From Minisyncoccales bacterium (GTDB taxonomy: Bacteria; Patescibacteriota; Minisyncoccia; Minisyncoccales; JAGMDC01), in NCBI GenBank assembly GCA_049642725.1, contig JBARPC010000016.1, positions 14,838 to 78,837 of the forward strand: a stretch of 64,000 nucleotides of DNA. The letters run 5' to 3'. Numbering within the stretch: position 1 is the stretch's first letter; each line of letters starts with the position of its first letter. This document shows, one piece after another, positions 19,780 to 58,118 of this stretch. The translations under genes were made by a program, and so were the position numbers. Under the pieces are notes generated by a model that was not told where the DNA came from, did no database searches, and saw only the letters and a list, made by a program, of their open reading frames with translations.

Positions 19780-21129
19780 TTATGTCTTACGGAGAAGTGT
19801 TCTCCTAAATCCTATCAATAATCCAACTAAAATAATGATTCCTCCTAAAATATATAGCCAAGTTTTTAGGTTCTTAAACCAAATAATCTCTGGCGATGGC
19901 ACTGCTGGCTTTTCTTTTTTTATGATAAGCTTACCAAAAATCTGTTTTAGGGTTTGATTTTTGTAATCAAGAATGGCAAAAGTTATAGGATAAAGACCAG
20001 CTTCCAGAGGCATTATTTTTGCCTCATAATAGGTTTTATCTTTGTTCACTCTTAAAAGAAACGAAAATGACTTTTTCCCCTCGCCTGCCTGACTGCCGTC
20101 AGGCAATCTGGCAGGTTTTTCTAAAGTAATCATTATTATCTTTAAAACTTCTGGAACTTTTTCATATGGGATAGAAATGTTTATTGGCTGTTGAAGTCCG
20201 ACTTCAACAGCTTCTGTTTCGGTAATAAGGAGTTTTTGGTCTTCCTGAAAAAACTCAAAATCTTCAAGGGTTAGTTTTTCAATCTCTGGAAAAATTATTT
20301 CTGGCCACACTTGACAAGCATCATCATACCAATAATAGCCGGCTTCTACACATTCTTCTTCATCGGTTATTTCTTCAGCTGGAGGAGGCGGTGAAGGAGG
20401 AGGTTTTATTTTAAAAGGAACACCTGAAACAATTGCTCCTGAAGCATAGTTTTCTGATTCATCATAAGCAAAGGCAGTGTAATAATATCTTTCTTCGTTA
20501 ATTAAACCAGTATCAGTAAATGAATTTTCTTTGTCATTATAAACTGTAATGCCATGTTCCGGGTTAGCAGGATAAAATTCCGTGCTTCTTTTTATTTTCA
20601 CTGCTTTAAAATCCCACGGATTTTGCCATTTTAAAGTTATTTGGGAATCTCCGGAAATTGCCTCAAAATTACTCACATTGGCCGGGGCAGTGGTATCTAA
20701 AATGATTGAATTAGAGACCTTTTTAGATATTCCACCATCAGAACTTCTAAATTTGGCGTAAACTGTCTTTTTTCCATCTCCTTTGCTCAAAGTCCATTTT
20801 TTGGCAGTTTGATATGGCTCCCAGGAGATTCCCGAGAAATCAAGCCAATTACTGACTGCCATCTGAAAGGCATTTTTAGCTGAAAGAGCTAAAGTAACAT
20901 CTAAAGAATTAGTATAAATATCATCATTATTAATAACTAAAGACCCTGGAATAACTTCAGGAGGAATGGGCGAAATAAAAACACCGCCGCCCGGCTCTTC
21001 CGGCGTTGGCTGTTCTGGCACAGTAGCATCTACATCAATTATTCCTTGCTCATCGGCCTGAATAGATATTGGAAGAATAAGAATTAACCAGAATAAAAAA
21101 ATACTTAAAAAAAATATCTTTTTTTGCAT
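19780..21129 (-). CDS. secreted, C-terminally anchored surface protein (Ig-like plus fibronectin-III-like domains)
   Basis: Signal peptide; LVINNDDIYTNSLDVTLALSA...GDGKKTVYAKFRSSDGGIS Ig-like module; Fn3-like ITLKWQNP...YYYTAFAYDE; PPPSPPPP linker; C-terminal TM plus basic tail. Confidence 0.7.
   Translation of the reverse strand: MQKKIFFLSIFLFWLILILPISIQADEQGIIDVDATVPEQPTPEEPGGGVFISPIPPEVIPGSLVINNDDIYTNSLDVTLALSAKNAFQMAVSNWLDFSGISWEPYQTAKKWTLSKGDGKKTVYAKFRSSDGGISKKVSNSIILDTTAPANVSNFEAISGDSQITLKWQNPWDFKAVKIKRSTEFYPANPEHGITVYNDKENSFTDTGLINEERYYYTAFAYDESENYASGAIVSGVPFKIKPPPSPPPPAEEITDEEECVEAGYYWYDDACQVWPEIIFPEIEKLTLEDFEFFQEDQKLLITETEAVEVGLQQPINISIPYEKVPEVLKIIMITLEKPARLPDGSQAGEGKKSFSFLLRVNKDKTYYEAKIMPLEAGLYPITFAILDYKNQTLKQIFGKLIIKKEKPAVPSPEIIWFKNLKTWLYILGGIIILVGLLIGFRRTLLRKT
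20187..20211. repeat. perfect palindrome GCTGTTGAAGTC-C-GACTTCAACAGC (family copy 1) inside CDS
   Basis: Read directly. Encodes AVEVGLQQP in the gene frame. Confidence 0.9.
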
Positions 21130-32863: not shown

Positions 32864-33484
32864 TTAACTATCAACTATCTTTTTTACTTCTTCTTTGAGT
32901 TTATTTTTAATTCCTGACCAAGAAGCTTTTTTTATCATTTCGGGTATCGGCTCTACGTCGGCTGGCTCAAAATAAATTAAACTCTTTAAAATGTGAAATC
33001 GATTATATTGAATGCCTTGATATTTTTTATCGAATAAATTAAGAAGCTTTTCAAGGGAATATTTTTCAAGTAAAAAATATAAATCTATAAAATCTTTTTT
33101 AGCTCCCCTACTAGAAATAGCATCTATCTTCATACATATAATATCACGTTCATCGGCTAACTCAATTTTTTTAAATTCAATAAAAGGAAATAATAGTTTG
33201 TATGGATAAATAAAAAAACTAACCTTGACTCCATCCAACTGGCAATTTAGCGTGTTATCATCTTCTGATTCTATTTTAAAATTATTAAAAGCAAAAAGTT
33301 TTCTTTTCAAAGAAATTAAAGAAACTTTTTTTTGTGAAAACCAATCCAAATCAATTGACTTTCGATGTCCTAACTGTAAAGCCAAGGCAGTGCCACCTGC
33401 TAAATAAAAATTTTGGACTTCTTTGATATTGCTTAACGCTTCCAAAACGCGTTTGGTTTTAATGTTGATAACTTCTTGATGCAT
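32864..33484 (-). CDS. nucleotidyltransferase AbiEii/AbiGii-like toxin family protein
   Basis: FYLAGGTALALQLGHRKSIDLDWFS and the later D-rich motifs resemble the AbiEii nucleotidyltransferase fold signature. Confidence 0.65.
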   Translation of the reverse strand: MHQEVINIKTKRVLEALSNIKEVQNFYLAGGTALALQLGHRKSIDLDWFSQKKVSLISLKRKLFAFNNFKIESEDDNTLNCQLDGVKVSFFIYPYKLLFPFIEFKKIELADERDIICMKIDAISSRGAKKDFIDLYFLLEKYSLEKLLNLFDKKYQGIQYNRFHILKSLIYFEPADVEPIPEMIKKASWSGIKNKLKEEVKKIVDS

Positions 33485-36810: not shown

Positions 36811-36877
36811 TTTTAAACAATTTCTAAACATTTTCTGGACAGTTTTTAAACAGTTTTTTTGATAGTTGATAGATAAG

Positions 36878-38065
36878 ATGAAAAAAACTTGGAAAATTTG
36901 TTTTTGTTCTTTATTATATGTTGTTTGTTCTTTGTTCTTTATGCTTGGCTTAGCTAAGCATAATTTTGTCTCAGCCTATAAATCGCTTGATGTAGTAATC
37001 AATGAAGTTTGCTGGATGGGCACAAAGGCCTCACATAGTGACGAATGGATTGAGTTGTATAATAATAGCGATGCTGATATAAATCTTGATGGCTGGGTAT
37101 TAAAAGCTAATGACAAAAGCCCGGAAATTGAACTAATGGGTATTATTTTAGGTAAAAGTTTTTATATTTTAGAAAGAACTGATGATGATAGTGCGGCTGA
37201 AATTTCTGCTGATATAATTTATAAAGGAGCTTTAAATAATAAAGGAGAAATTTTAGAACTTTTTGATGGCGATAAAAATCTGATAGATAAAGTGGATTGC
37301 GGCAAAGGATGGTTTGCCGGTGACAATAAAACAAAACAAACAATGGAAAAGCTTGTTGAAGTCGGACTTCAACAAGCTCATTGGCAGACAAGCCAAAAAC
37401 CAGGCGGAACACCAAAAACTAAAAACAGTGATGGAAATGCTATGGAGGCCGAAACTCCTATGGAGGTTCGGCCTCAAAGCGAGCCGCCTCAAAACGAGCA
37501 TTATCCTTCTGGAATAATTATCAATGAAATACTGGCCTCGCCAGAGGGCCCTGACGCGGAAAATGAATGGATAGAAATTTTTAATGAAAATAATTTTGAT
37601 ACTGATATCTCTGGCTGGAAAATTTCTGACACTGTTGGTGGTATTAAGAGTTATACTTTTCCAATAGGAACAAAAATCCCAGGAAAAGAATTTTTGGTTT
37701 TAGAGCGTCCGGAAACAAAAATTACTTTAAATAACAATGGTGATGGATTAAAAATCTTTAATCCTAATGGAAAAATCGTTGATGAAATAAACTTTGAAAA
37801 AGCGACCTTAGGACAATCATATAATAAATTTGAATCTGAATGGCAATGGTCAGAAAATTTAACGCCTGGCGCTGTTAATAGTTCAGGAAAACATACGGAG
37901 AGCGAGTTTCTATTAGATGGTTCCAGCGAAGCAAGAATCAGCCAAGGATTTAAACAACTCTACGAGAACAGTTCTCGTAGAATGGCTGTTGTAATTGCTC
38001 TAATAATTGCTTTTTGTTCAGCTATTATTATTTTAATTTTAAAAAAGAATTTGAAAAGTAATTAA
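36878..38065 (+). CDS. membrane-anchored protein with two lamin-tail (LTD) domains
   Basis: VVINEVCWMGTKASHSDEWIELYNNSDADINLDGWVL and IIINEILASPEGPDAENEWIEIFNENNFDTDISGWKI are LTD signatures. N- and C-terminal hydrophobic segments. Confidence 0.75.
   Translation: MKKTWKICFCSLLYVVCSLFFMLGLAKHNFVSAYKSLDVVINEVCWMGTKASHSDEWIELYNNSDADINLDGWVLKANDKSPEIELMGIILGKSFYILERTDDDSAAEISADIIYKGALNNKGEILELFDGDKNLIDKVDCGKGWFAGDNKTKQTMEKLVEVGLQQAHWQTSQKPGGTPKTKNSDGNAMEAETPMEVRPQSEPPQNEHYPSGIIINEILASPEGPDAENEWIEIFNENNFDTDISGWKISDTVGGIKSYTFPIGTKIPGKEFLVLERPETKITLNNNGDGLKIFNPNGKIVDEINFEKATLGQSYNKFESEWQWSENLTPGAVNSSGKHTESEFLLDGSSEARISQGFKQLYENSSRRMAVVIALIIAFCSAIIILILKKNLKSN
37350..37378. repeat. perfect palindrome AGCTTGTTGAAGTC-G-GACTTCAACAAGCT (family copy 2, longest) inside CDS
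   Basis: Read directly. Encodes KLVEVGLQQA. Confidence 0.9.
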
Positions 38066-40923: not shown

Positions 40924-40989
40924 TTTCTTATCATAGCAAAAGTATTTTAATTTGCCAAATAGAACATAATCTATTAAAGTTAAAAGTAT

Positions 40990-44138: not shown

Positions 44139-44306
44139 ATTATTAATATTAATTAAATAAATTTTATTATTGTTATTATATATGTGTATATCTTTATTTT
44201 TAATTTAATTCTTCTATAAATAACTTGTGTAAAATTTGTTTATTAAAAATGGTTTAAAATTTCTTTTTTTATAATTCAGATTTTCTTCACTTTTTCTTCA
44301 CTTTTT

Positions 44307-47910: not shown

Positions 47911-49701
47911 TTACTCTATTACTTGGATGCAAGAGGCCTTTTGAGATATTGAGTTTATAGGATTACAGGCAGGACAGGGGTTGGCAAAAGTAGTAGCAAG
48001 AGGAGTGCCTGGACAGCAGTTTCCGGTAGCATAATAATCGCAACTTAATTCAGAAAAAGTATATTTATATTTTGTACAATTACTCCTTTGTGTCAAGCAG
48101 TCATTAAAACCATCAGGAGGAATATCACAATCAAATCCTGCACCCCCTGCAAAATCACAAGCGCCACTAGTAGCAGGAAGATCCAACAAGGCATTAGAAG
48201 GTCCTGGAGTGTCCCAGGAATCTGGATGCGGTGAAAGCCATTCTCGTCCGCAACAACTATCATCTGTTTCGCAGTCAATACCATAAGCATTATCAGGATT
48301 GTCATACTTGCCAGCAGACACATTTAAAGAACCACAGTCGCATTTTCCAGCGGCATCCGGTTCCCTGCATTGAGCGCCGGTTCCGCCATTTTCCCAAATT
48401 TTTATTTTACAGCCGCCTTTATATTGATAAACTTCTGTTACAGAGTTGCTTGGCACAATACTATCTTTTCCTAATTGATATATTTCACCTCTGGGAATAA
48501 AATCAGTTTTTCCAGCTCCTTTGATAAGAACGCCGCCGCACACGCCAAATTTAATTACGCATATCTTGCTTACAGCGTTATCACCGACATCGTTATTAGC
48601 AACTAAAGCGCCGTCTGCTGGATTATTTGAAATAAAAGTATCGCCATAACCGGTGTTTTCCGGAAAATTGTCATATACAATACCTGAACCTTTCCATCCA
48701 CAATCTCCATTAGGTTCTCTACATAAAACTGTCCAATAACCAGGTCCTACTTCTAAGGAAGAAGCTCGGTTTTCGCCGATGCGAGATAATTCAGAACCGC
48801 TTTTACAATCATAACCGTTTATGCCGGCCGGGAACTCCTGATAAATCCCGCCAAAGTTTTTTTCTTCATACAAACGTGCTCCTTGAGGAATATCAGATAT
48901 CTCAATTGAAGAAAGAGCTCCTAATCCGTCTTCACCTAAAAATACACCAGTAATATCATTTCTTAAAACACTTATATCTATACATTGTTTTGGGGTTGTT
49001 AAAATCTTGCATTCTTTAAGGTCGCTGTCAGCGCATACTCTGACTCTTTTGTCATCACCATAAAAAATAAGCGATATTGCTATGTCATTCCAGTCATCAG
49101 ATTCGTTATATTGATGCCTTTTTAGGTTTTCACTCAAGGAAAGATTTAACATTTGTCCGCCAATACATTCTTTATTGTCATCTTTGTCAATATCAAGCCA
49201 TTCTTTTCCTGCGTTTTTGCAATCCTCTTCTGTAATAATACCGACATCAATATTACAATTCAATTCGTCAAATAGAGTAACAGTGCCAGATGTGCCTTGA
49301 TAAAAACTTATATCTTCTAAATCAATAGGATAGAAAATAGTTAATTGGGGATTGATTGTGTTTAGAATCAGCCAGGAGCAGAGCAGAAGGACTAAGCCGA
49401 TTAAAGCCCCAAATATTCTATCTTTAGCGTCAGATAAAGCAGCCGGATTGCCGGCAGAAATTAAATAAAGAAAGCCGCCGATAACCAGAGCGGCAAAAGC
49501 AATTAAACCGACAATAATTAAAGAAAAATTAAATAAATATTTTATATACTCTGGCAAAAGGGTTTCCTGGACAGTAGTAGGTTTTTCACCGGCAATTTCA
49601 GGATAATCAACTTCCAGGGGTCTTTCAACAGCAAAAACATTCTGGCAGCAGATAAAAAGAAAGATAATTAATATTATAGATAAAAAAAATTTATATTTCA
49701 T
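47911..49701 (-). CDS. T4SS-pilin-like N-terminal domain fused to a ~470-aa Cys-rich extracellular region
   Basis: Signal peptide plus two TM helices with LYLISAGNPAALSDAKDRIFGALIGLVLLL, as in TrbC/VirB2-type pilins of CPR clusters (from memory). I count about 28 Cys downstream. LYEEKNFGG...SSLEVGPGYW resembles a beta-gamma-crystallin Greek-key motif. Confidence 0.6.
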   Translation of the reverse strand: MKYKFFLSIILIIFLFICCQNVFAVERPLEVDYPEIAGEKPTTVQETLLPEYIKYLFNFSLIIVGLIAFAALVIGGFLYLISAGNPAALSDAKDRIFGALIGLVLLLCSWLILNTINPQLTIFYPIDLEDISFYQGTSGTVTLFDELNCNIDVGIITEEDCKNAGKEWLDIDKDDNKECIGGQMLNLSLSENLKRHQYNESDDWNDIAISLIFYGDDKRVRVCADSDLKECKILTTPKQCIDISVLRNDITGVFLGEDGLGALSSIEISDIPQGARLYEEKNFGGIYQEFPAGINGYDCKSGSELSRIGENRASSLEVGPGYWTVLCREPNGDCGWKGSGIVYDNFPENTGYGDTFISNNPADGALVANNDVGDNAVSKICVIKFGVCGGVLIKGAGKTDFIPRGEIYQLGKDSIVPSNSVTEVYQYKGGCKIKIWENGGTGAQCREPDAAGKCDCGSLNVSAGKYDNPDNAYGIDCETDDSCCGREWLSPHPDSWDTPGPSNALLDLPATSGACDFAGGAGFDCDIPPDGFNDCLTQRSNCTKYKYTFSELSCDYYATGNCCPGTPLATTFANPCPACNPINSISQKASCIQVIE

Positions 49702-49713
49702 TATTTTATTTTA

Positions 49714-50127
49714 TCAACTTTTTAGTTCAGAGTAAACAAAGATAGTCCAAAAGGGCAGGGCGCCAATAACAGGAATTAATTCTCCAAGAGCAGCTAAGCC
49801 AAATCTTAGTCCTCTTTTTGCTCCTTTTTTTACTGTTTTTTTTGCTTTCTTTTTCATTCTTTTCTTTTTCATTTCTTCTATCTTTTTTTGTCTTTCAGCT
49901 ACTTTTTCGCCCATTTCTTCTTTTACTTCTTCTTTTGATTTTTCGCCTTGAGAACGCATAAGTGTCCAGGCGCCGAAAAAGAGAATGCCGATTCCATCAG
50001 GGATATAAGAAAGAACTTCGCCTATTCCAAAAACAAGATCTAATAATAAACAGATTACTCCAATTAAATCAAGTAAACCTGCCAAGAATAACATTAAGAT
50101 TGCTTCTGGACTAAATAAAGAAGACAT
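49714..50127 (-). CDS. small membrane protein with Lys-rich cytoplasmic loop
   Basis: Hydrophobic N- and C-terminal segments flank a KKKRMKKKAKK stretch. Tightly packed between the pilin fusion and the VirB4-like gene. Confidence 0.5.
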   Translation of the reverse strand: MSSLFSPEAILMLFLAGLLDLIGVICLLLDLVFGIGEVLSYIPDGIGILFFGAWTLMRSQGEKSKEEVKEEMGEKVAERQKKIEEMKKKRMKKKAKKTVKKGAKRGLRFGLAALGELIPVIGALPFWTIFVYSELKS

Positions 50128-50128
50128 A

Positions 50129-51916
50129 TTACTCGCTTAGTTTTGCTTTTGCTTGTTTAATTTTCATTATTTCTTCAGGAGAAGTGGTAATAATCTGTTC
50201 TTCAGCATAAGATGCAACAATTCTTATTGCCACATGTTTTTGGCCGGCAAAGAATAATCCCTCCCCTACAGCTGACTCTAAAAGCATAAATTTTTCTTCT
50301 TCTGTTAAATTAAATGTTTTCTGCACTACATCAATAGTGGCCGGGCTTTGCTTCATTAAAAGCTGAAGGGAAGAGTTGGTAATAATTGGTTTGCCGTATT
50401 CAGATTTCATAAAGTCGGCTACATCCTGGGTAATAGTGGTTACTCCTAACCAGTATTTTCTGGCTCTTTTGCAGATGCCAAACAAGAATGAAGCGCCGTC
50501 TTCTGACTGCATGAGCCACCATGCCTCATCTACTACTAATATCCTTTTTTTTATTTGAGAACGGACAGCATTCCAGATATGCCTCATAATAATATACATT
50601 GCCATTGGTTTGAGCGCTTCTTCCATATCTCTAAGACCAAAAACAACAAGCTTATTGTCCATTGTGATATTTGACGGTTGATTAAAAAACTGGGAAAAAG
50701 TCCCTTTTGTAAACTTTCTTAATCGTTTTACCAATGAATCAGCTCCTTCCATTGTTTCTAAAACAGATTCCAAATCTTCCATCAAAGGAAGATTTTCATT
50801 CCATGTAGATGGGTCTCTTTCAGTTGTAATATCTTTTGCTGCGTATGTTTCAGTTAAAGCCCGGTCAATAATAGCATCTTCTTCTGCTGTTAAGCCGCCA
50901 AGCATAATTCTTAGTAATCCTACCAAGTTTATAATATTTGAACGGAGAATGTCTTCCGGCCTTTCATCTTCCCTGGGCATGGGCAGTTCAAAAGGGTTAA
51001 TGTGATTTGGAGAAGATAAAGAAACGTCAATATAGGAGCCGCCCACGCTTTCAGAAAGCGTCTTATACTCATTTTCCGGGTCAATAATTATACAATCAGT
51101 GCCAAGCATTAAGGAACGGAGAATTTCCAATTTCACGAAAAACGACTTTCCTGCTCCAGACTTGGCAAAAATAACTGAATTTGCATTTTCTAAACTGAAT
51201 CGGTCAAAAAGAATTAAAGAGTTATTGTGCTGGTTTACTCCATAAAGGATTCCTTCGTTTGAAGACAAGTCAAAAGAAATAAAAGGGAAAATACTGGATA
51301 AAGGGCTGGTGTTCATTGAGGCGTGGATGCCAAGCTGGTCTAATTCGTATGGAGAAGAAGAAATAAATCCTTGTTTTTGGCGGTAGAGGGCTGGTTTAAT
51401 ATAAATAAGACGGGACTCTAACACAGAACGTAGTTCGGTTTCAATGCTTCTTAATTCTTTTATATCTTCTCCATAAATAGTGACATAAAGCCCGAATTTA
51501 AACATTCTTTCCTGGGCTGTTTGGAGAAGGTCTCTTAATTCTTCAATATCTTTGTAAGCAGTTTCTATGGCTGGGTCCCGGATTAATCCTTTTTCTTCTC
51601 TTTCTATGATTTCTGCCTGAATTTCAGTTACTTTTTTCCTTAAGTTTTTTAAAACCATTCCAGTTGCAATAGGATGAACAAAAAAGGAAATATCCATTGG
51701 CGTGTCTAAATTAATAATCGGCGAGAGCCAGCCAGTGCTTAAATATCTTGGATAGGAAAAAACAAAAAATGACTTGGCTAACTTTTCGCCCAATTTGAGA
51801 TAATCAGAATTAATTTCAATAGATGAGGGGGAGATAATATCCCCTACTCTAAGAATTTCCGGCTTAGTAAATCCTTGAAATTCTTTTTTCTTTTTTTTGA
51901 AAAAATTTATTTTCAT
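50129..51916 (-). CDS. VirB4/TrbE-like type IV secretion ATPase
   Basis: Walker A AKSGAGKSFFVK, Walker B ILVVDEAWWLM, conserved GVTTITQ motif. Start moved to MKINFF (ATG 51916), 1 nt after the upstream stop. Confidence 0.8.
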   Translation of the reverse strand: MKINFFKKKKKEFQGFTKPEILRVGDIISPSSIEINSDYLKLGEKLAKSFFVFSYPRYLSTGWLSPIINLDTPMDISFFVHPIATGMVLKNLRKKVTEIQAEIIEREEKGLIRDPAIETAYKDIEELRDLLQTAQERMFKFGLYVTIYGEDIKELRSIETELRSVLESRLIYIKPALYRQKQGFISSSPYELDQLGIHASMNTSPLSSIFPFISFDLSSNEGILYGVNQHNNSLILFDRFSLENANSVIFAKSGAGKSFFVKLEILRSLMLGTDCIIIDPENEYKTLSESVGGSYIDVSLSSPNHINPFELPMPREDERPEDILRSNIINLVGLLRIMLGGLTAEEDAIIDRALTETYAAKDITTERDPSTWNENLPLMEDLESVLETMEGADSLVKRLRKFTKGTFSQFFNQPSNITMDNKLVVFGLRDMEEALKPMAMYIIMRHIWNAVRSQIKKRILVVDEAWWLMQSEDGASFLFGICKRARKYWLGVTTITQDVADFMKSEYGKPIITNSSLQLLMKQSPATIDVVQKTFNLTEEEKFMLLESAVGEGLFFAGQKHVAIRIVASYAEEQIITTSPEEIMKIKQAKAKLSE

Positions 51917-51917
51917 C

Positions 51918-52556
51918 TTATTTTTGCAGTTCTGGCGGTATTTCCGGATAATAACCGACCTCTGCCTGGTTTGGATGATGCAGTCCCCAAAAAAGCTCAA
52001 TGATTTCCGGGGTTGTAAGAGGAACAGCTTTTAAACCGCATCTTCTTAAGCCAAGAATTATAAATTCCATTCTTTGCTGGAGCTGGATTTTAGACCTTTG
52101 AAATTCTTCTTCAGTTAATTTGGGAATTTTCGGCGCTTTAAAAATTCCTTTCTTTTCATTTTGCTTTGTTTCCAACAAGCTAAAAGGCACAATTATAAAA
52201 AAGTTTTTATTCATTATTGTCCCTGCCTTTACCAAACTTTCTATAAATTCTCTGTAACCAGATGTTTGAATTTGTAACAGTTCGTCTGTTTGCTCTTTTT
52301 CCAGCTTTTTTAATTTATCAATATAGCCAGTGATATTGATGCGCCGTGATTGGACAAGAATTTGGCAGGAAAAATCCAGAGAATTTAAAAAGTTTTGGAA
52401 CTGGTAAATAATGGCTGATTGCTCATCGTCAGATTTTAAAGCAAAATTCAAAGAAGAAACCATAAGAATGCCTCTTAATAATTTATTTTTTAATATAACA
52501 GTTCCTTCCCTAATTTGCTCTATTTGCAGGAAATCCTGCGTAGATGATTTAGCCAT
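51918..52556 (-). CDS. 212-aa protein resembling a detached VirB4 N-terminal region
   Basis: DFLQIEQIREGTVILKN...LNFALKSDDEQSAIIYQFQNFLNSLDF resembles the N-terminal part of conjugative VirB4/TraC ATPases. Assigned from memory. Confidence 0.45.
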   Translation of the reverse strand: MAKSSTQDFLQIEQIREGTVILKNKLLRGILMVSSLNFALKSDDEQSAIIYQFQNFLNSLDFSCQILVQSRRINITGYIDKLKKLEKEQTDELLQIQTSGYREFIESLVKAGTIMNKNFFIIVPFSLLETKQNEKKGIFKAPKIPKLTEEEFQRSKIQLQQRMEFIILGLRRCGLKAVPLTTPEIIELFWGLHHPNQAEVGYYPEIPPELQK

Positions 52557-52561
52557 ACTTT

Positions 52562-52978
52562 TTACTTTGTTTTAGTTTCTAATTGGCTGGACAATTGCCC
52601 GAGCTTGCTTCCTGTAATAGTTAAATTAGAAGCTTTTTCTTTTTTACCCTCTGCGGTTTTAGTAGAAAAAGGTTCCTTTTCAAGAAATTTAGGCGGTAAT
52701 CCTTTTTTCTTCCAAATATATAATTTAGGAGACGAGGAAAACATAAAGAAATCTTTTATTATAGTAGGCAGGGAACGGCCTTCAATTTTTACAAAAGCTA
52801 ACACCAAAGCGCCTCCCATAAGAATAACAGCAGCAATTAAGCATTGGGCAAGAGGAATAGTGAAATATAAAACAAAAGAAATTCCGCCGGCAATGCCGAC
52901 ATAAATAAACTGCTTAAAAGTTAATGGTCCGACAATTTTTGCTTCATGCTCAATAAATTTTGGAACAGTAAATCGCAT
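52562..52978 (-). CDS. PrgI/VirB3-like small membrane protein
   Basis: MRFTVPKFIEHEAKIVGPLTFKQFIYVGIAGG followed by two TM helices matches the PrgI family pattern. Confidence 0.6.
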   Translation of the reverse strand: MRFTVPKFIEHEAKIVGPLTFKQFIYVGIAGGISFVLYFTIPLAQCLIAAVILMGGALVLAFVKIEGRSLPTIIKDFFMFSSSPKLYIWKKKGLPPKFLEKEPFSTKTAEGKKEKASNLTITGSKLGQLSSQLETKTK

Positions 52979-53086
52979 TTAATAAGTTAAAAGTTTAAAG
53001 TGAAAACTTTGACTTTTGACTTTTCGCTTGCTCTATTTTACCACAGTTTTATTTTATCACAAAAAGGAAAATAAGAGAAATAGGGA

Positions 53087-53115
53087 TTGACAACACTTTT
53101 TTAAAATGCTATTCT
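53087..53115 (+). promoter_or_regulatory. promoter TTGACA-17 nt-TGcTATTCT
   Basis: TTGACA 53087..53092, TATTCT 53110..53115 with an upstream TG. AAGGAGGT SD lies before ATG 53183. Confidence 0.5.
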
Positions 53116-53182
53116 AATATAGAGGTCATTTAAAAAATAAATAATGGCCGATAGAGAAAAGAAAAGGAGGTAAAAAGAAGAA

Positions 53183-53467
53183 ATGAGAGGAAAAAAAGTT
53201 TTGTTTGCCGTTTTGATTACAATGTCGCTGATGATATCTGGAATATCAGTAGCAGCATCTGAGGAATACGATTCATGGGATTCCTACAACAAAAATAGAG
53301 AAGCAATGTATGGGTCTTTTGAAGCATTAGGGGGACCGGATTACGGACAATTGTTTATTATTGTTGGAGTGGCAATAGCTTTGGTAATAGCTTTCCTGGC
53401 TCTGGCTCTGGCTCTGGCAAAAAATAAAGAGGCAGAAAGGTTGTATTTAAAGCAACCACACCAATAA
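53183..53467 (+). CDS. small secreted protein with C-terminal TM anchor
   Basis: Signal peptide VLFAVLITMSLMISGISVAAS, C-terminal LFIIVGVAIALVIAFLALALALA. Strong SD and terminator. Confidence 0.55.
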   Translation: MRGKKVLFAVLITMSLMISGISVAASEEYDSWDSYNKNREAMYGSFEALGGPDYGQLFIIVGVAIALVIAFLALALALAKNKEAERLYLKQPHQ

Positions 53468-53469
53468 AA

Positions 53470-53498
53470 AGAGGGTTCTATCACCCTCTGTTTTTTTT
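53470..53498 (+). terminator. rho-independent terminator
   Basis: AGAGGGT-TCTATC-ACCCTCT then G plus T8. Confidence 0.8.
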
Positions 53499-53555
53499 AT
53501 TATTTCCTGTTTTTATAAAAAATTGCGTTTCGTAATAAAATATATGGCCAAAAAT

Positions 53556-53597
53556 TTGACAAAATTGAAACAAGTGCTATAATTATAATAGCACTTG
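53556..53597 (+). promoter_or_regulatory. consensus promoter TTGACA-16 nt-TGcTATAAT overlapped by 10-bp perfect inverted repeat CAAGTGCTAT/ATAGCACTTG
   Basis: TTGACA 53556..53561, TATAAT 53578..53583, palindrome 53571..53597. GGAGGTG SD lies before ATG 53667. Confidence 0.6.
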
Positions 53598-53666
53598 AAC
53601 AATAAAATATGTGATGAAAGTGTTGAAGAGAAGTAAAAGATGTAAAAAACAGGAGGTGAAAAAAAA

Positions 53667-54797
53667 ATGGAAGAAGAAAAGGAAGAAGAGAAGAAAAAAG
53701 CTTTAACTCCGGAAGGTGTCCAGAAATTAATCAAAGCAGTAAAAATAGTGTCAGGAGTTTTAGCAATGACTGGAATAGTATTGCTTGTTTCCGGACTTTG
53801 GTTAGAAAATATCTCTTTACAGTTGAGCGGAGCAATTCTCTTGATAGCCATAGCAGGATATTTTTTGGCTGGAATTAGAATTATCAAAAGACCAAAGATG
53901 TGGGTGATGCAAGTACTCGGTCAGTTTTATGATGTATTTTACGAAGGACCTCATTTGTTTTTACCCTTTTTGGTTAGAAGAGAAGCGGAACGTACCCAGG
54001 CGATATTTAAGATAGAGTTATTTACAGACAAGCCAGTGGTTAATTTCAAAGGCGGGGGTTCAGCTGTTTTAGTTGAACCAATTGGCTGGTTTCAGATTGA
54101 TGACGCGGAAGTAACGGTCTATAACATAGAGGATTATATCGGCGCATCAAAAGAAGCTACAGAGGATGCTGTAAGAACAGTAATAAATAATACGCGGGTA
54201 GAAAATGTAGTGGGTTCATTAGCAAAAGAAAAAACAGAAACCGCAGAAACTTTTAAAGGGTTTAAAAAAGCTGTAAGTGAGGTTTTTAACAGCCAACTCA
54301 GAGACATAGTAGGGAGTATGTTGGAAGAAACATTAAAAGAGTACGGGCTTAAAATGGCTGGAAGGAAATTGACTATCACCGATTATAACTGGAGCGAGGA
54401 AGTGCTGGCAACAATGAGAGCTATTTACGAACAAAGACAGCAGAAAGTCATAAGTGAACATACAGCAGAAGCAAGAAGAATTGAAATTGGAGAGGCAATC
54501 GGGAAGATTAAGGAAACTTTACAAAAAGTTTTTGAGTTTCCAAAAGATAAAGCCGAAGAAGTAGCGCCAGAAATTTTTAAGCACATAACAGCAAGCGATA
54601 AAGGCCAGTTGAAACTGATTAAGTGGGAAAGCAAAGGAGGAGGCATTTCTTTACCGGAGATAACAGCTAAAGTAATGACAGCGATGGATATGTTTAGAGA
54701 AACAAAGAAAGGAGAAGAGGGAGAGAAAAAAGCGAAAAAACCAGAAGATATGACCGATAGAGAGATAATAGATGCAGTAAAAAAGGGAGAAATTTAA
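53667..54797 (+). CDS. membrane-anchored SPFH/band-7-like protein
   Basis: N-terminal TM segments, then VMQVLGQFYDVFYEGPHLFLPFLV resembling the SPFH core start. Charged coiled C-terminus. Confidence 0.55.
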   Translation: MEEEKEEEKKKALTPEGVQKLIKAVKIVSGVLAMTGIVLLVSGLWLENISLQLSGAILLIAIAGYFLAGIRIIKRPKMWVMQVLGQFYDVFYEGPHLFLPFLVRREAERTQAIFKIELFTDKPVVNFKGGGSAVLVEPIGWFQIDDAEVTVYNIEDYIGASKEATEDAVRTVINNTRVENVVGSLAKEKTETAETFKGFKKAVSEVFNSQLRDIVGSMLEETLKEYGLKMAGRKLTITDYNWSEEVLATMRAIYEQRQQKVISEHTAEARRIEIGEAIGKIKETLQKVFEFPKDKAEEVAPEIFKHITASDKGQLKLIKWESKGGGISLPEITAKVMTAMDMFRETKKGEEGEKKAKKPEDMTDREIIDAVKKGEI

Positions 54798-54804
54798 ATT
54801 AAAA

Positions 54805-54831
54805 AGGGGCAAGATAATCCCCTCTTTTTTT
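54805..54831. terminator. bidirectional rho-independent terminator
   Basis: AAAAAGGGG-CAAGATAAT-CCCCT then CTTTTTTT. Confidence 0.75.
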
Positions 54832-54839
54832 ATTCTTTT

Positions 54840-55280
54840 TTATTCTATTGGTTCTCGATAAGTATCTCTTCGTAAGGGTACAGATGATTCGCTTGTCAAT
54901 TCTTTAGTTTTTTTTAGATAAACAGTTTCTTTTTTTATCGAGGGCATCTGTGCTAAAATTAGAACTTTTTCTTTAAGGTCTTTTGCTAATTTTTTTGCTT
55001 TTTCTTGAGGAATTTCTAACCGTTTTTGAAGAACAGAAACAAATTCTTTAGATGAAATTTTGCTTTCTGCTATTTCTTTTACTGTTCTGGATATTTGACA
55101 GGTAGGTAGATTTTCAAAAATCTTTCCTCTTTCCGCAGGAATTTCAGTTTGGCTTATTTTTTCTTCCATTTCTTTCTCAATTTTTTCTAATTCGTATTTT
55201 TTTACTAATTCTCTGATAATATCAGTTGTTTTATCTGGAAAAATTATTTCTTGTTTTTTGTTTAATTTAGGATTTGTCAT
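54840..55280 (-). CDS. hypothetical charged protein in the T4SS-like cluster
   Basis: 146-aa ORF packed 20 nt downstream of the VirB6-like gene. No recognisable motif. Confidence 0.45.
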   Translation of the reverse strand: MTNPKLNKKQEIIFPDKTTDIIRELVKKYELEKIEKEMEEKISQTEIPAERGKIFENLPTCQISRTVKEIAESKISSKEFVSVLQKRLEIPQEKAKKLAKDLKEKVLILAQMPSIKKETVYLKKTKELTSESSVPLRRDTYREPIE

Positions 55281-55300
55281 AATTTTGTTTCATTATTAGC

Positions 55301-57271
55301 TTAATATTCATCTAATTTTGTTTGTTTTCCTTTTATTGGTTGTCTTTTTTCAGAAAATTTTATTCTAAATCCTGGACCCTTGAGTACTGCTTTTTTACGA
55401 GAGAGTTCTGCTGCTTCTTTTTCTTTTCCTTTCTCGTCTAACTCTATTATTTCTTCTTTTATATCTATTTGAGACACTGTTTCAAGAATAGCTTTTTTTG
55501 TTTTACTTTTTCCCTTTTTTCCTATTTCGATAAGTTGGCGATCATCTAATGCGTGGAATATATCTAATTTCGTCTTAATTACTATTTTTTCTTCTTTAGT
55601 GAGTTCTTGCCCTTCTTCTTGTTTCTTTAATATTTCGTCTGGAATTTTGAAAGTTTCTCCTTGAACCTTTCTTAATTCTTCAGGTTCCATTCCTTGTACT
55701 TTTTCAAAGATGACTTCTCTTTCTGCTTCTTCTCTATTTATTCCTGGTTTCTTTTTTATTATTTCATCAACTTTTTCAGGATTTAACTTAGCTGCAAGGT
55801 CAGGTCGTTTTTTTCCAGCGTCAATTATATCTTTTTGGGTTCCATATCTTTTAACAATATCTATATTTTTTTCATCTTTATCACCAAGATGGTCTTCTTT
55901 GGTAGCCAACCTAAATGCAACTAATTTTTCAGTAGGAGTCTTGACATATTTCTCTCTGTCTTTTACAGACATAGGTTCTAAAAGTTTTTGTGTTTTTTCT
56001 GCTTCTTTTTCTCTCTCTATCTGATGTTTTGCTATAGCCTCTGCTTTCATTCTCCCTGTTCCTACTGTTTCTGGTATTTTTTCTAATCTTCCTCGCCATT
56101 TTTCTGATTGCCCTTTTACAAGAGCTGTTTCTTTTATTTTTCCTCCTGTCCATTTTGCTGCTTTTGTGCCACCGGTTTTCGCAAAACCAATTACTTTGTC
56201 AGCTCCGATGGCGCCGGTGCGGACAGAGGCAAAAAATCCGATTATAAGAAAAACAAGAGGTATAACATACATTATTAAATCAGCAAAGCCGCTTGTTCCT
56301 GATGGAAGCCCTGCCATTTCTTTTGAAGGGCGTCTAATTAATCCTCCAGTGTCGGACATATTCTTTATCATAACGTTTGTTAGATAAATAAAGAAAGCGG
56401 CCGGTATTCCGATAATACACCACTGGATAAACTGGTTCCACCACTTTGACCAGACTTCTTTTGTTTGAGGCAAGATATAGCAAAAGAAAGCAATTGGCGA
56501 GAAAATTACCAAAATCCAAAGAGCGAGATATCTTACGGCAAATAAAAAAGCGAAAAGCAAAAAGATAATTCCTCCTATAATATTGAAAGCAGAAAGGGCT
56601 ATTCCTATTGCAAGCCGTTCAGATGGTTCTTTAATGTTTTTTATTTCAGCAACTTGTTCACCGGCTGTTTCAATAAAACCAGTGCTTGTTATTCCCCCTT
56701 TTAGAAAAGTGTTCATTACGACATTTGAACCGTCAATAACAAAACCGCAGATTACCGGAGTAAAGTTAATTAAAAGAGCGATTCCGATTAAAACAGGCAA
56801 AAGTTTTTTAACTTCATACTCTTTGAGCCGTAGAGCGCTTCCCAGGGCAATTACCACCAAGACCAAAATAAACAGCATATTAGTAAAATCCCTGACAGTG
56901 GTCCAGCCAAGATTAACAACAGGATTATTTGTAAAAGGAACACTTATAAAGTCAGGGCTGATTACCCATTGAAGAGTTGCATGAGAAAAGTAAAGAAAAA
57001 AAGAAGTAAGACCAGCAATAGCTCCAAAAAGTACATAGACAATACCATTGGCAAAAGATTTTGCCATAATACCAAGAGTATCAAAATCTCCGGTTACAGC
57101 TTTATAGCCCAACCATGTGGCCCAATGAGGTGGTATGAGAAATCCATGAGAAAAGAAAATAGGGACACCTAATCCTAAAACAACAGAAAATAAAAGAATC
57201 CATCCCACTGTTTTTTTAAGAATTATGAAATCAAAAAGAAATTTTTTGATTTTATGGACTATTGCCATCAT
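55301..57271 (-). CDS. polytopic membrane protein, VirB6/TrbL-like, with long Lys/Glu-rich C-terminal tail
   Basis: About 8 TM segments in the first ~370 aa. Size and position fit a T4SS channel component. Assigned by architecture only. Confidence 0.55.
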   Translation of the reverse strand: MMAIVHKIKKFLFDFIILKKTVGWILLFSVVLGLGVPIFFSHGFLIPPHWATWLGYKAVTGDFDTLGIMAKSFANGIVYVLFGAIAGLTSFFLYFSHATLQWVISPDFISVPFTNNPVVNLGWTTVRDFTNMLFILVLVVIALGSALRLKEYEVKKLLPVLIGIALLINFTPVICGFVIDGSNVVMNTFLKGGITSTGFIETAGEQVAEIKNIKEPSERLAIGIALSAFNIIGGIIFLLFAFLFAVRYLALWILVIFSPIAFFCYILPQTKEVWSKWWNQFIQWCIIGIPAAFFIYLTNVMIKNMSDTGGLIRRPSKEMAGLPSGTSGFADLIMYVIPLVFLIIGFFASVRTGAIGADKVIGFAKTGGTKAAKWTGGKIKETALVKGQSEKWRGRLEKIPETVGTGRMKAEAIAKHQIEREKEAEKTQKLLEPMSVKDREKYVKTPTEKLVAFRLATKEDHLGDKDEKNIDIVKRYGTQKDIIDAGKKRPDLAAKLNPEKVDEIIKKKPGINREEAEREVIFEKVQGMEPEELRKVQGETFKIPDEILKKQEEGQELTKEEKIVIKTKLDIFHALDDRQLIEIGKKGKSKTKKAILETVSQIDIKEEIIELDEKGKEKEAAELSRKKAVLKGPGFRIKFSEKRQPIKGKQTKLDEY

Positions 57272-57275
57272 TTTA

Positions 57276-58118
57276 TTATTTTAACATTTTAGCAAGATTA
57301 AGCCAATCAGTAATGCTTAGGGTTTCGGCTCGTTGGGAGGGTTTGATATTATTTTTGAGAAGATATTTTTGAACATTGTTCTTTTTTAATTGTAGCCCAT
57401 TTGCTAAATTATTCAAAATCTGTTTTCTGGGATGTGAAAATCCTGCTTTTACGATTTTGAAGAATCGTTTATAGAACTCTGCTGAATAATACGCAGAACT
57501 ACGCGGAATAATTTTTATAATTGCTGCGTCAACTTTTGGTTCAGGCCAAAATGAGCTTTTAGAGATATAGTCAATAATTATTGGCTTGGCATAGAATTGA
57601 ACCGAAACAGCTAAAAGATTCATTTTAGGCGGCTTGGCGTAAATTCTTTGCCCCACTTCTTTTTGAACGACTAAAACCATCTGTTGAAGTCCGACTTCAA
57701 CATTCTCAAGAAATTTTCTGATGACTGGAGCTGTAAGATAAAACGGCAAATTAGCAACAATTTTATAATCTTTTGGAAATTTATTAAACTTGAGTATATC
57801 TTTTTGGATAACCTTAATATTGCGAGGTTGAACCTCCTTTGGAGGTTTGACCTCAAGTGTTTCTCTAAGAATTTCACACATTTTAGGATCTTTTTCTATG
57901 GCAATTACCTTTTTTGCTTTCTTCGCTATTTCCTGGGTTAGGGTTCCAATGCCAGGACCGATTTCCAAAACAGTATCTAATGGTTTTAATTCAGCTGTTT
58001 TTATAATTTTTCTAATTACCTGCTTGTCAATTAGAAAATTCTGGCCAAATTTTTTTGATGGCCTAATATTATATTTTTTCAATATTTCTTTAACAGTTTT
58101 TCTTGATGCCAGATTCAT
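57276..58118 (-). CDS. rsmA: 16S rRNA (adenine1518/1519-N6)-dimethyltransferase RsmA/KsgA
   Basis: KKFGQNFLIDKQVIRKII...VLEIGPGIGTLTQEI...NLPFYLTAP. Confidence 0.9.
   Translation of the reverse strand: MNLASRKTVKEILKKYNIRPSKKFGQNFLIDKQVIRKIIKTAELKPLDTVLEIGPGIGTLTQEIAKKAKKVIAIEKDPKMCEILRETLEVKPPKEVQPRNIKVIQKDILKFNKFPKDYKIVANLPFYLTAPVIRKFLENVEVGLQQMVLVVQKEVGQRIYAKPPKMNLLAVSVQFYAKPIIIDYISKSSFWPEPKVDAAIIKIIPRSSAYYSAEFYKRFFKIVKAGFSHPRKQILNNLANGLQLKKNNVQKYLLKNNIKPSQRAETLSITDWLNLAKMLK
57682..57702. repeat. perfect palindrome TGTTGAAGTC-C-GACTTCAACA (family copy 3) inside rsmA
   Basis: Read directly. Encodes NVEVGLQQM. Confidence 0.9.

What the first reader, a model, noticed from the sequence alone, without database searches (positions are those of the whole stretch)
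57682..57702. Same palindrome inside the conserved core of rsmA/ksgA
In RsmA the element encodes NVEVGLQQM, between the NLPFY motif and the VVQKEV helix. In E. coli KsgA this segment has nearly the same length (my recollection of that sequence). The element therefore seems to replace native sequence rather than lengthen it. A housekeeping enzyme carrying the same 21-nt palindrome as two surface or accessory genes is the cleanest test of insertion versus convergence.
Basis: partly seen in the sequence, partly recalled or inferred. Interest (0 to 1): 0.65.

Follow-up and report, generated by a model that had tools for sequence, protein, structure and literature searches.

The report
Transposase-linked palindrome written into rsmA
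The 21-base palindrome inside the rsmA gene is a copy of a dispersed repeat that, in related ultra-small (CPR) bacteria, flanks and sits inside the gene of a REP-type tyrosine transposase. It occupies a surface loop of the enzyme without changing its length, so mobile-repeat DNA is here being read as protein in housekeeping genes.

Summary
TGTTGAAGTC-C-GACTTCAACA at 57682-57702 is a perfect 10-1-10 palindrome. It occurs three times in the window (0 expected), always inside an ORF and always read as VEVGLQQ.

It is not an insertion. RsmA relatives have the same length here and mostly read VEVKPQQ. In all five other species whose rsmA DNA I could read, this loop holds a palindrome of the same architecture (TG-N8-N-N8-CA) but different sequence. 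Six of ten pairs show compensatory changes, and the window has Leu where at least 90% of relatives have Pro.

The same 21-mer occurs in 52 distinct contexts on low-GC, CPR-like contigs (29 intergenic or short-ORF, about 22 genic). In three independent loci it flanks and lies inside a 216-247 aa Y1/HUH transposase gene (Pfam Y1_Tnp; best NCBIfam match is REP-associated tyrosine transposase, below cut-off). Homologous transposases carry different palindromes, flanking and in-frame in one hypervariable loop.

Best reading: a REP/RAYT-type system of Patescibacteria whose repeats live in-frame in genes (rsmA, rsmH, a threonyl/alanyl-tRNA-synthetase-domain protein, a sigma factor, surface proteins) and are renewed in place.

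Limits: no transposase gene lies in the window, and the renewal mechanism is inferred. I rate this a new variant of a known kind.

The parts
57682..57702 (-). REP-like palindrome TGTTGAAGTC-S-GACTTCAACA, translated in-frame as VEVGLQQ (RsmA residues 139-145)
   Evidence: It folds as a ssDNA hairpin. Residues VEVG fall in loop 138-142 and LQQ at the start of strand 143-151 in the model.
57276..58118 (-). rsmA/ksgA (16S rRNA adenine dimethyltransferase), the host gene
   Evidence: Pfam RrnaAD at E = 3e-59, residues 22-279 on model positions 6-261. A 100% identical public protein is named RsmA of a Minisyncoccales MAG.
20187..20211 (-). Second copy (core 20189-20209; symmetry extends to 12-nt arms), in-frame as VEVGLQQ in a 449-aa protein with no Pfam family (ORF 19780-21129)
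   Evidence: Orthologues have the same segment length. The orthologue in L075 carries a different palindrome at the same site.
37350..37378 (+). Third copy (core 37354-37374; symmetry extends to 14-nt arms), in-frame as VEVGLQQ in the loop after the first lamin-tail domain (ORF 36866-38065)
   Evidence: Orthologues in L036 and L051 carry the same 19-mer at the same place. The closest other orthologues read VEVKLQQ or VEVKPRQ, and loop length varies from 5 to 13 aa.

Best explanation
The palindrome is a member of a REP-like family of short dispersed palindromes of Patescibacteria (CPR bacteria). Its cognate enzyme is a RAYT-like Y1/HUH single-strand-DNA transposase.

Shown:
- The same 21-mer flanks and lies inside such a transposase gene in three independent contigs.
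- Homologous transposases are flanked by, and contain, different palindromes of the same 10-1-10 form TG-N8-N-N8-CA.
- The family occurs between genes and, unusually, in-frame within genes.
- In rsmA the repeat occupies a surface loop where every relative examined also has a palindrome of this form, kept by compensatory substitutions.
- The protein length is unchanged.

Inferred:
- On single-stranded DNA the repeat folds into a hairpin that the transposase recognises and cuts at its foot. The conserved flank is YT|GTTG...CAAC|AR.
- Resident hairpins at tolerated sites are overwritten, or driven by few substitutions, towards the family currently active in the genome. For rsmA that is AAACCT to GGACTT, which includes Pro143 to Leu. 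This would explain three identical copies in this genome where orthologous sites elsewhere hold other sequences.
- The encoded VEVGLQQ is a tolerated by-product and not the selected feature.
For: Transposase link:
- L064 has five exact copies within 900 bp: two upstream of, two inside and one downstream of a 247-aa ORF.
- L059 has three exact copies plus one with a single mismatch around and inside a 60%-identical ORF.
- L086 has five copies (T/A centre) around and inside a third homologue.
- These ORFs pass the Pfam Y1_Tnp cut-off (24.6-35.4 bits against 23). Their best NCBIfam match is REP_Tyr_transpos.
- The motifs N-H-[FV]-H and Y-I-Q-x-x-N are invariant or nearly so.

Co-variation of enzyme and repeat:
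- L084 carries TGTCGGTATC-A-GATACCGACA. L085 carries TGGCGGTATC-S-GATACCGCCA seven times in 20 kb. L028 and L091 carry GC-rich palindromes. Each is found beside its own transposase gene and inside the called gene: in the hypervariable loop in L084, L085 and L028, near the C-terminus in L091.
- 58 of 123 homologues have a loop peptide that can encode a perfect 10-1-10 palindrome, against 0.02% of windows elsewhere in the proteins.

Family spread:
- There are 52 distinct contexts on low-GC contigs, 29 intergenic or short-ORF and about 22 genic. The flanking base is T in 94% and the next is C or T in 93%.

The rsmA site:
- There is no length change.
- In six species 91.7% of cells pair, 6 of 10 pairs change on both sides, none changes on one side only, and 0 of 500 shuffles reach the score. 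Slid controls pair at 33-43%.
- The core of the L088 rsmA palindrome, GGAGGCC-C-GGCCTCC, equals the core of the repeat beside the L028 transposase.
- The window has Leu where at least 90% of relatives have Pro.

Other hosts:
- The same no-length-change pattern holds in host 1 and in rsmH of L011-L013.
Against: - No transposase gene is present in the 64-kb window (tblastn). The two places where syntenic relatives have one are empty here. The link therefore rests on other genomes, and the rest of this genome could not be fetched.
- The transposases fall far below the NCBIfam RAYT cut-off (23-38 bits against 80). hhalign against E. coli RayT aligns only the HUH strand. The structure model was too poor to compare folds (pLDDT 60.5).
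- Copy number in the window is modest, at 3 per 64 kb.
- All three window copies are genic, the opposite of the 'extragenic' habit that names REPs.
- Replacement in place by the transposase is not a demonstrated activity of any RAYT.
- Several palindrome families coexist in some genomes (L075, L091), so homogenisation is at most partial.
- The exact-match scans bias the sample towards perfect copies and, outside L086, towards C/G centres.
Confidence: 0.75

Rival explanations
1. A conserved hairpin that belongs to rsmA itself, for example an mRNA structure that affects translation or stability. On this view it has been kept by compensatory evolution for its own function, and its identity with the dispersed repeat in this genome is secondary.
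For: A palindrome is present at the same codons in all six rsmA sequences read, with strong covariation. The E and P codons that form its middle are conserved across the family.
Against: - The 21/21 identity with two other genes in the window and with transposase-flanking copies elsewhere cannot be coincidence.
- The L088 version shares its 15-nt core with another transposase's repeat.
- The A' version GTTGAGGTCAAACCTCAAC also occurs in an unrelated gene in L091.
- There are no G-U-type single changes among 55 paired cells, which fits DNA symmetry better than RNA pairing.
- The same behaviour is seen in a protein of unknown function and in the transposase gene itself.
- No Rfam family matches.
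Confidence: 0.1
2. A plain in-frame insertion of a 21-nt mobile element into rsmA, as Rickettsia palindromic elements insert into genes. On this view the match to the relatives' peptide is an alignment accident.
For: The unit is 21 nt, which is 7 codons. Insertion with lengthening does seem to occur elsewhere: the RsmA of L038 has the repeat at another site in a segment 18 aa longer, and the lamin-tail loop varies from 5 to 13 aa.
Against: RsmA has no extra residues here. Five of seven residues match the relatives' VEVKPQQ, and only three nucleotide differences (AAACCT to GGACTT) separate the window from that version. Host 1 and RsmH likewise show no length change.
Confidence: 0.05
3. A binding site for a chromosome-organising protein (parS-like centromere or similar), created by point mutation wherever it is tolerated near the replication origin.
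For: It is a perfect dyad with TGTT...AACA ends reminiscent of parS. All three copies lie within about 25 kb of the 452-aa and 389-aa ORFs at 42969-45665. I take these to be dnaA and dnaN from synteny with L091; they were not annotated directly here. Such sites are indifferent to coding.
Against: There is no match to the parS consensus. Copies cluster around transposase genes and not around origins. The sequence co-varies with the transposase. The origin region of the relative L091 has no copy of this family. L085 has seven copies of its family in 20 kb with no dnaA gene called in the locus.
Confidence: 0.04
4. Selection on the peptide VEVGLQQ (a shared protein motif), or a DNA-uptake signal accumulated by biased uptake.
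For: The same reading frame is used in all three window genes.
Against: Synonymous positions and flanking non-coding bases are identical. The repeat is read as VEVRLQQ and LKSDFN elsewhere, and more than half of contexts are not coding. There is no excess of single 9-10-mers, as uptake sequences would show.
Confidence: 0.02

Closest known systems
REP / REPIN sequences with their RAYT (TnpA-REP) transposase (Nunvar 2010, PMC2817692; Bertels & Rainey 2011, PMC3116915; Bertels 2017, PMC5581495)
   Same: A short palindrome (about 21-33 nt with extensions) is dispersed in the genome. The transposase is of the Y1/HUH type and its gene is flanked by the repeat. Repeat sequence co-varies with the enzyme. 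Inverted doublets occur (L085 17665-17717). Intergenic copies are sometimes followed by T runs.
   Different: Nearly half of the contexts are inside genes and translated, including all three in the window. The transposase gene itself carries an in-frame copy in a hypervariable loop. The palindrome is perfect, with a one-base centre and no GTAG or CGTC tag. Density is low. The proteins are about 240 aa with a C-terminal extension and fall below the NCBIfam RAYT cut-off. The host phylum is Patescibacteria, for which I found no RAYT report.
Rickettsia palindromic elements (RPE), in-frame selfish DNA in protein-coding genes (Ogata et al. 2000, from my own knowledge; context in PMC1779305)
   Same: A palindromic repeat is tolerated in-frame within housekeeping genes of a reduced genome, in surface-exposed segments, and is translated.
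   Different: RPEs are about 100-150 nt, lengthen the host protein, and have no known dedicated transposase. Here the unit is 21 nt, the length of RsmA is unchanged, and a cognate transposase family is identifiable.
IS200/IS605 family (IS608, ISDra2 TnpA)
   Same: Same Pfam family and HUH/Tyr catalytic motifs (weak PDB match to ISDra2 TnpA 2XM3, E = 0.38). The enzyme is expected to recognise hairpins on single-stranded DNA.
   Different: The repeats are not the ends of a multi-copy element that carries the gene. Each protein cluster is seen on one or a few contigs. The palindromes are dispersed on their own.
Quasi-palindrome correction by intrastrand template switching (Ripley/Lovett model, from my own knowledge)
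   Same: It could turn an imperfect inverted repeat into a perfect one without changing length. Two of the three rsmA substitutions restore pairing.
   Different: It does not explain the identical centre base and flanks in three genes, or the link to a transposase.

Membership tests
REP (repetitive extragenic palindromic) sequences | Short (20-40 nt) palindrome able to form a stem-loop | tested here: met
   10-1-10 perfect palindrome, extended to 12- and 14-nt arms in two copies. ssDNA fold z-scores are -4.1 to -7.0.
REP (repetitive extragenic palindromic) sequences | Located outside genes | tested here: not met
   3 of 3 window copies are inside ORFs. Across 52 contexts, 29 are intergenic or short-ORF and about 22 are genic.
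REP (repetitive extragenic palindromic) sequences | High copy number across the genome | tested here: inconclusive
   3 copies in 64 kb here, 5 in 0.9 kb in L064, and 7 of a sister family in 20 kb of L085. No complete genome was available.
REP (repetitive extragenic palindromic) sequences | Cognate RAYT gene flanked by the repeat | tested here: met
   This holds for this exact palindrome in L064, L059 and L086. It could not be tested in the window's own genome, and no such gene lies in the window.
REP (repetitive extragenic palindromic) sequences | GTAG or CGTC tag at one end (Di Nocera 2013, PMC3733652) | tested here: not met
   The ends are YTGTTG...CAACAR.
RAYT (REP-associated tyrosine transposase) | Y1/HUH catalytic core (HUH motif and catalytic Tyr) | tested here: met
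   Pfam Y1_Tnp is above cut-off for the L064, L059 and L028 proteins. N91, H94, Y152 and I153 are invariant, and H92, Q154 and N157 nearly so. E. coli RayT has HMH and YIYINP.
RAYT (REP-associated tyrosine transposase) | Scores as RAYT by the curated model (NF047646, cut-off 80 bits) | tested here: not met
   It is the best and only NCBIfam match, but at 21.8-38 bits. hhalign against E. coli RayT aligns 21 columns round the HUH motif, probability 1.3%.
RAYT (REP-associated tyrosine transposase) | Single copy per genome, housekeeping-like distribution (PMC5581495) | not testable with these tools
   Each 90% cluster is seen on 1-7 contigs, but no whole genomes could be read.
RAYT (REP-associated tyrosine transposase) | Fold like E. 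coli TnpA-REP (PDB 4ER8) | tested here: inconclusive
   The AlphaFold model has pLDDT 60.5, with the catalytic half below 55, so no fold search was run. A profile search of PDB sequences gave only ISDra2 TnpA at E = 0.38.
Rickettsia palindromic elements | In-frame insertion of about 100-150 nt that lengthens the host protein | tested here: not met
   The unit is 21 nt, and RsmA, host 1 and RsmH are not lengthened.
parS / ParB centromere | 16-bp TGTTNCACGTGNAACA consensus | tested here: not met
   Only 3-mismatch hits at chance level: 3 found against 1.25 expected.
DNA uptake sequences (DUS/USS) | Very many single copies of a 9-12-mer | tested here: not met
   The 9- and 10-mer half-sites occur only within the three full palindromes.

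The most novel reading that the evidence does not exclude
CPR bacteria have almost no intergenic space. In them, REP-type hairpins may have become permanent residents of tolerated loops inside essential genes (rsmA, rsmH, a tRNA-synthetase-domain protein, a sigma factor) and inside the transposase's own gene. On this reading the Y1 transposase renews them in place by exchanging one hairpin for another at the same foot. The repeat family of a genome would then evolve in concert and rewrite a few codons of housekeeping proteins as it goes, even overriding a nearly invariant proline. The in-frame copy in the transposase's hypervariable loop would act as a built-in master copy or autoregulatory site that keeps enzyme and repeat matched.
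Probability: 0.3. Interest if true: 0.85.

Novelty: new variant of a known kind. Interest (0 to 1): 0.7.

Why it matters
REP/RAYT systems are known mainly from Proteobacteria and are by definition extragenic. How the repeats spread is still unresolved.

Here a related system appears in Patescibacteria with three unusual properties:
- The repeats are translated inside housekeeping genes.
- Orthologous sites keep a palindrome while its sequence turns over without any change in length.
- The transposase gene carries its own repeat in-frame.

This offers a natural experiment on how these hairpins are copied, because replacement can be told apart from insertion. It shows a DNA-level force changing conserved residues of essential enzymes. 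It also gives a practical warning for annotation and phylogenetics of CPR proteins: identical heptapeptides in unrelated proteins can be repeat DNA and not homology.

Tried and rejected
- parS-like site: the consensus search gave only chance-level hits.
- Uptake-sequence idea: there are no free half-sites.
- Known RNA family: Rfam at gathering threshold found nothing in the whole window.
- Phage origin: the six viral-contig hits are all on 52-62% GC contigs without the T...A flanks. Two of them are the same contigs as two high-GC metagenome hits.
- The high-GC genome hits (Caulobacter, Brevundimonas, Kofleriaceae and others) read LKSDFN in long ORFs. I treated them as unrelated chance or protein-motif matches.
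- Literature search for the sequence found nothing with the 13-mer core. The 9-mer hits were primers.
- Fetching the rest of the window's 80.9-kb contig failed. Only short contigs of a 99%-identical strain came back, without a transposase gene called (no Y1_Tnp among the annotated genes).
- Structure route to RAYT membership: the model was too poor. phmmer and a profile search against PDB sequences gave only a marginal ISDra2 TnpA hit. hhalign against E. coli RayT aligned only the HUH strand.
- GC skew did not give a usable replication direction, because it follows gene strand. Strand bias of the centre base could therefore not be tested.
- The peptide-compatibility test on RsmA alone was not decisive. 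Two conserved columns elsewhere are also 'palindrome-compatible' in over 90% of sequences. The claim therefore rests on real DNA from six species.

Full report
**1. The observation**

Window 57682-57702 is TGTTGAAGTCCGACTTCAACA, a perfect palindrome of two 10-nt arms round one base. A search allowing three mismatches finds it at exactly three places: 20189, 37354 and 57682. All three are perfect and differ only in whether the centre reads C or G on the + strand. None is expected in shuffled sequence. The 9- and 10-nt half-sites never occur alone.

All three copies lie in long ORFs. On the coding strand all three read GTT GAA GTC GGA CTT CAA CA = VEVGLQQ. The hosts are:
- RsmA: Pfam RrnaAD at E = 3e-59. 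A public protein 100% identical is named RsmA of a Minisyncoccales MAG.
- A protein with two lamin-tail domains.
- A 449-aa protein with no Pfam family.

The window is 30-41% G+C and carries no tRNA gene and no Rfam family.

**2. It is not an insertion into RsmA**

In an alignment of 120 homologues the window protein has no extra residues at this point. Most relatives read LE-x-VEVKPQQ-M. Others read PEARPRA, AEARPPH or GDVKPRQ. The Pfam match covers 258 residues over 256 model positions.

In an AlphaFold model (pLDDT 91.9) residues 138-142 (N-VEVG) form the loop between helix 125-137 and strand 143-151, and LQQ opens that strand. Local confidence dips to 82.

Position 143 is Pro in at least 90% of 57 aligned relatives and Leu in the window.

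**3. The site is a palindrome in every relative whose DNA I could read**

| Locus | rsmA loop DNA |
|---|---|
| L089 | TGTTGAGGTC-A-AACCTCAACA |
| L030 | GGTTGAGGTC-A-AACCTCAACA |
| L028 | TGGCGATGTC-A-AACCTCGCCA |
| L087 | TGCCCGAGGCC-C-GGCCTCGGGCA (perfect, 11-nt arms) |
| L088 | GTGCGGAGGCC-C-GGCCTCCGCAC (perfect, 11-nt arms) |

Counted on the six distinct sequences:
- 91.7% of cells pair.
- 6 of 10 pairs show changes on both sides, and none shows a one-sided (G-U type) change.
- 0 of 500 shuffles reach the covariation score.
- Sliding the partner by 1-3 columns drops pairing to 33-43%.

Several of the compensatory changes alter amino acids (V..Q to P..A, G..R and A..H). From the VEVKPQQ version the window differs by three substitutions, AAACCT to GGACTT. 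Two of them restore pairing, and one turns the conserved Pro into Leu.

The sample is six sequences from related organisms, so this test is indicative and not a probability.

**4. The same 21-mer elsewhere**

Exact-match scans found the 19-nt core in 26 stretches of species-representative genomes and 51 stretches of metagenome contigs.

Hits on contigs of more than 50% G+C read LKSDFN inside long ORFs, lack the T...A flanks, and are best taken as unrelated. All six viral-contig hits are of this kind.

On low-GC contigs (Paceibacterota, Parcubacteria, Gribaldobacteria, 'Patescibacteria group') there are 52 distinct contexts:
- 29 are intergenic or in short ORFs. These often have symmetry extended by 3-11 nt and a following T run.
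- About 22 are inside ORFs of at least 100 codons.

The base outside the core is T in 94%, and the next is C (61%) or T (32%). The unit is therefore YTGTTGAAGTC-N-GACTTCAACAR.

Genic copies are read as VEVGLQQ, VEVRLQQ or LKSDFN, so no single peptide is being selected.

Ascertainment caveat: the scans required exact cores and, apart from the viral scan, C/G centres.

**5. The link to a transposase**

Contig L064 holds five copies within 900 bp: two just upstream of, two inside and one just downstream of a 247-aa ORF.

L059 has the same arrangement round a 60%-identical ORF, plus a one-mismatch copy.

L086, fetched through a homologue, has five copies with a T/A centre round and inside a third.

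These proteins pass the Pfam Y1_Tnp (IS200-like) cut-off. Their only NCBIfam match is the REP-associated tyrosine transposase model, far below its cut-off. They keep N-H-F-H and Y-I-Q-x-x-N motifs, comparable with HMH and YIYINP of E. coli RayT.

The database search returned 874 homologues, and the sources that name any of them give Parcubacteria, Paceibacterota or Nealsonbacteria. Each cluster is seen on one or a few contigs.

**6. Enzyme and repeat co-vary**

| Locus | Palindrome | Where |
|---|---|---|
| L084 | TGTCGGTATC-A-GATACCGACA | inside the transposase gene, with a near-copy just after it |
| L085 | TGGCGGTATC-S-GATACCGCCA | seven copies in 20 kb: before, inside and after the gene, inside a 1319-aa gene, and as an inverted doublet |
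| L028 (syntenic relative of the window) | AAGCTCGGGGGAGGCC-C-GGCCTCCCCCGAGCTT | next to its transposase gene, with GGGAGGCC-C-GGCCTCCC inside it |
| L091 (syntenic relative of the window) | GGGAGGGAC-A-GTCCCTCCC | inside its transposase gene, with a 23-nt-arm version just upstream |

In the protein alignment the internal copy always falls in one hypervariable loop, between 'SS.N.LR' and 'ESVFE.GWP'. The loop peptides include LLKSDFN, LSVSDTDR, LLVSDTNR, LSAPGADR, LLTSDVNS, LKPGFN, and VVEVGLQQ in P0180. They back-translate to palindromes of the common form TG-N8-N-N8-CA. The loop is compatible with a perfect 10-1-10 palindrome in 58 of 123 homologues, against 0.02% of windows elsewhere in the same proteins.

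The core of the L088 rsmA palindrome (GGAGGCC-C-GGCCTCC) is the core of the repeat beside the L028 transposase. The A' version found in rsmA of L089 and L030 recurs in the lamin-tail gene of L091. The palindromes in the rsmA loop therefore belong to dispersed families in at least three lineages.

**7. Other host genes**

Host 1 (19780-21129): orthologues without the repeat have 21-24 residues between DF.F.Q and ISI.Y against 22 in the window, so again there is no insertion. The 60%-identical orthologue in L075 has a different palindrome, CTGTAGACATC-G-GATGTCTAGAG, at exactly this site.

Host 2 (lamin-tail protein): the loop between QTMER and NWQTS varies from 5 to 13 residues. The nearest orthologues read VEVKLQQ or VEVKPRQ, and L036 and L051 carry the exact core. 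Insertion cannot be excluded for this gene.

Elsewhere the family sits in:
- RsmH of three species (IARNIVEVRLQQPIE; 296 residues over 305 model positions, so not lengthened).
- A protein with a threonyl/alanyl-tRNA-synthetase second additional (SAD) domain.
- An ECF sigma factor.
- Topoisomerase I (flanks atypical, possibly chance).
- A second RsmA at a different site, in a segment 18 residues longer.

**8. How it most likely works**

Shown: the palindrome is one family of a REP-like population tied to Y1/HUH transposases. It is tolerated in-frame in surface loops. Particular sites keep a palindrome while its sequence differs between lineages.

Inferred from what is established for IS200/IS605 and E. 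coli TnpA-REP (PMC2817692, PMC3479197, PMC8266576): the repeat folds as a hairpin on single-stranded DNA, and the enzyme binds it and cuts at its foot.

Inferred from the unchanged lengths, the three identical copies and the Pro-to-Leu change: resident hairpins are either exchanged at the same foot, or are pushed by a few substitutions towards the active family. One candidate for the latter is templated correction of a quasi-palindrome. I cannot tell these two apart.

The peptide is a by-product.

**9. Rivals**

- An rsmA-specific RNA hairpin explains the covariation. It does not explain the identity with other genes and with transposase flanks, or the absence of G-U intermediates.
- Plain insertion is contradicted by the lengths.
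- A parS-like site fits the dyad and the nearness to the likely dnaA and dnaN genes (42969-45665, identified only by synteny with L091). It does not fit the transposase clustering, and the parS consensus is absent.
- Peptide selection and uptake sequences are excluded by the intergenic copies, the multiple frames and the lack of half-sites.

**10. Limits**

- No transposase gene lies in the window. The two positions where syntenic relatives have one are empty: the tyrS/PBP junction at about 41.0 kb, and 52.98-53.67 kb.
- The remainder of this genome could not be read.
- RAYT membership is supported by context and motifs, not by the curated model or by a fold comparison.
- I found no paper describing RAYTs in CPR bacteria or translated REPs. 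That is a limited literature search and not proof of novelty.

Noticed in passing
L064 1986-2004 and 2514-2532; L059 3430-3448; L086 2827-2857; L084 10173-10193; L085 10287-10307; L028 15592-15608: Each RAYT-like transposase gene carries an in-frame copy of its own cognate palindrome in one hypervariable loop (L064 has a second copy near the C-terminus). 58 of 123 homologues have a loop peptide compatible with a perfect 10-1-10 palindrome. The purpose is unknown; autoregulation, a master copy, or cis-preferential insertion are possibilities.
   Followed up: partly
window 5657-5677, 25521-25541, 29489-29509, 36941-36961, 37959-37981: There are further 10-1-10 palindromes with at least 9 of 10 pairs and at least 38% G+C: 9 in the window including the three studied, against 0.43 expected in shuffles. 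Two of them lie in the same lamin-tail gene as copy 2. CGTAGATGTCAGGCATCTACG resembles the GATGTC/GACATC family seen in L028 and L091. They may be other, older repeat families.
   Followed up: partly
window 40990-41010 and 52978-53667: Syntenic relatives have a Y1 transposase gene between the tyrosyl-tRNA-synthetase and PBP genes (L091 14351-15052) or next to the T4SS cluster (L028 15095-15817). In the window these slots are empty. The 423-aa ORF (39739-41010) and the 660-aa ORF (40990-42972), which correspond by synteny to those two genes, overlap by about 20 nt. The transposase gene therefore moves or is lost between close lineages.
   Followed up: partly
window 42969-45665: The 389-aa ORF (42969-44138, -) and the 452-aa ORF (44307-45665, -) are probably dnaN and dnaA, judged by synteny with L091. 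The window would then span the likely replication origin region. GC skew follows gene strand and gives no clean switch.
   Followed up: no
L038 6099-6117 and 6232-6250: A different RsmA orthologue carries the same 19-mer at another site, in the C-terminal domain (KKSVEVGLQQLQRQ), in a segment 18 residues longer than in the window. A second copy lies 133 nt downstream. The family has therefore entered rsmA at least twice, here apparently with lengthening.
   Followed up: partly
L011 5591, L012 6899, L013 4181: rsmH (MraW methylase) of three species carries the repeat as IVEVRLQQP with no lengthening. Flanking synonymous sites differ between the species while the 19-mer is identical, but this is subject to exact-match ascertainment.
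   Followed up: partly
L028 14960-15042: Just 5' of the GC-rich palindrome beside the L028 transposase gene there is a run of partial tandem copies of its arm (aagctcgggggagctcgggggctcggggaagctcggggaagctcggggg), as if from slippage or repeated abortive copying.
   Followed up: no
L026 936-984; L062 and L074 (same context): A nested arrangement, tgttgaagtc-TGTTGAAGTC-C-GACTTCAACA-gacttcaaca, has each arm duplicated in tandem. It lies upstream of the likely start of an RNase J gene.
   Followed up: no
window 32864-33484; 34261-35559; 47911-57271: The window holds an AbiEii-type toxin gene, a type II/IV secretion ATPase, and a run of ORFs that by synteny with L028 correspond to a type IV secretion-like cluster (TraC-like, VirB4/TraG-like, PrgI-like and TrbL-like products). 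In L064 the transposase gene lies directly upstream of an 898-aa ORF that looks (by eye, not tested) like the TrbL-like gene beside rsmA in the window.
   Followed up: no
L086 (all copies) versus window and L064/L059: The centre base of the palindrome is T/A in all copies of L086 but C/G in all copies of the window, L064 and L059. The unpaired centre is therefore lineage-specific, which argues that copies within a genome share descent and are not independently selected hairpins.
   Followed up: partly
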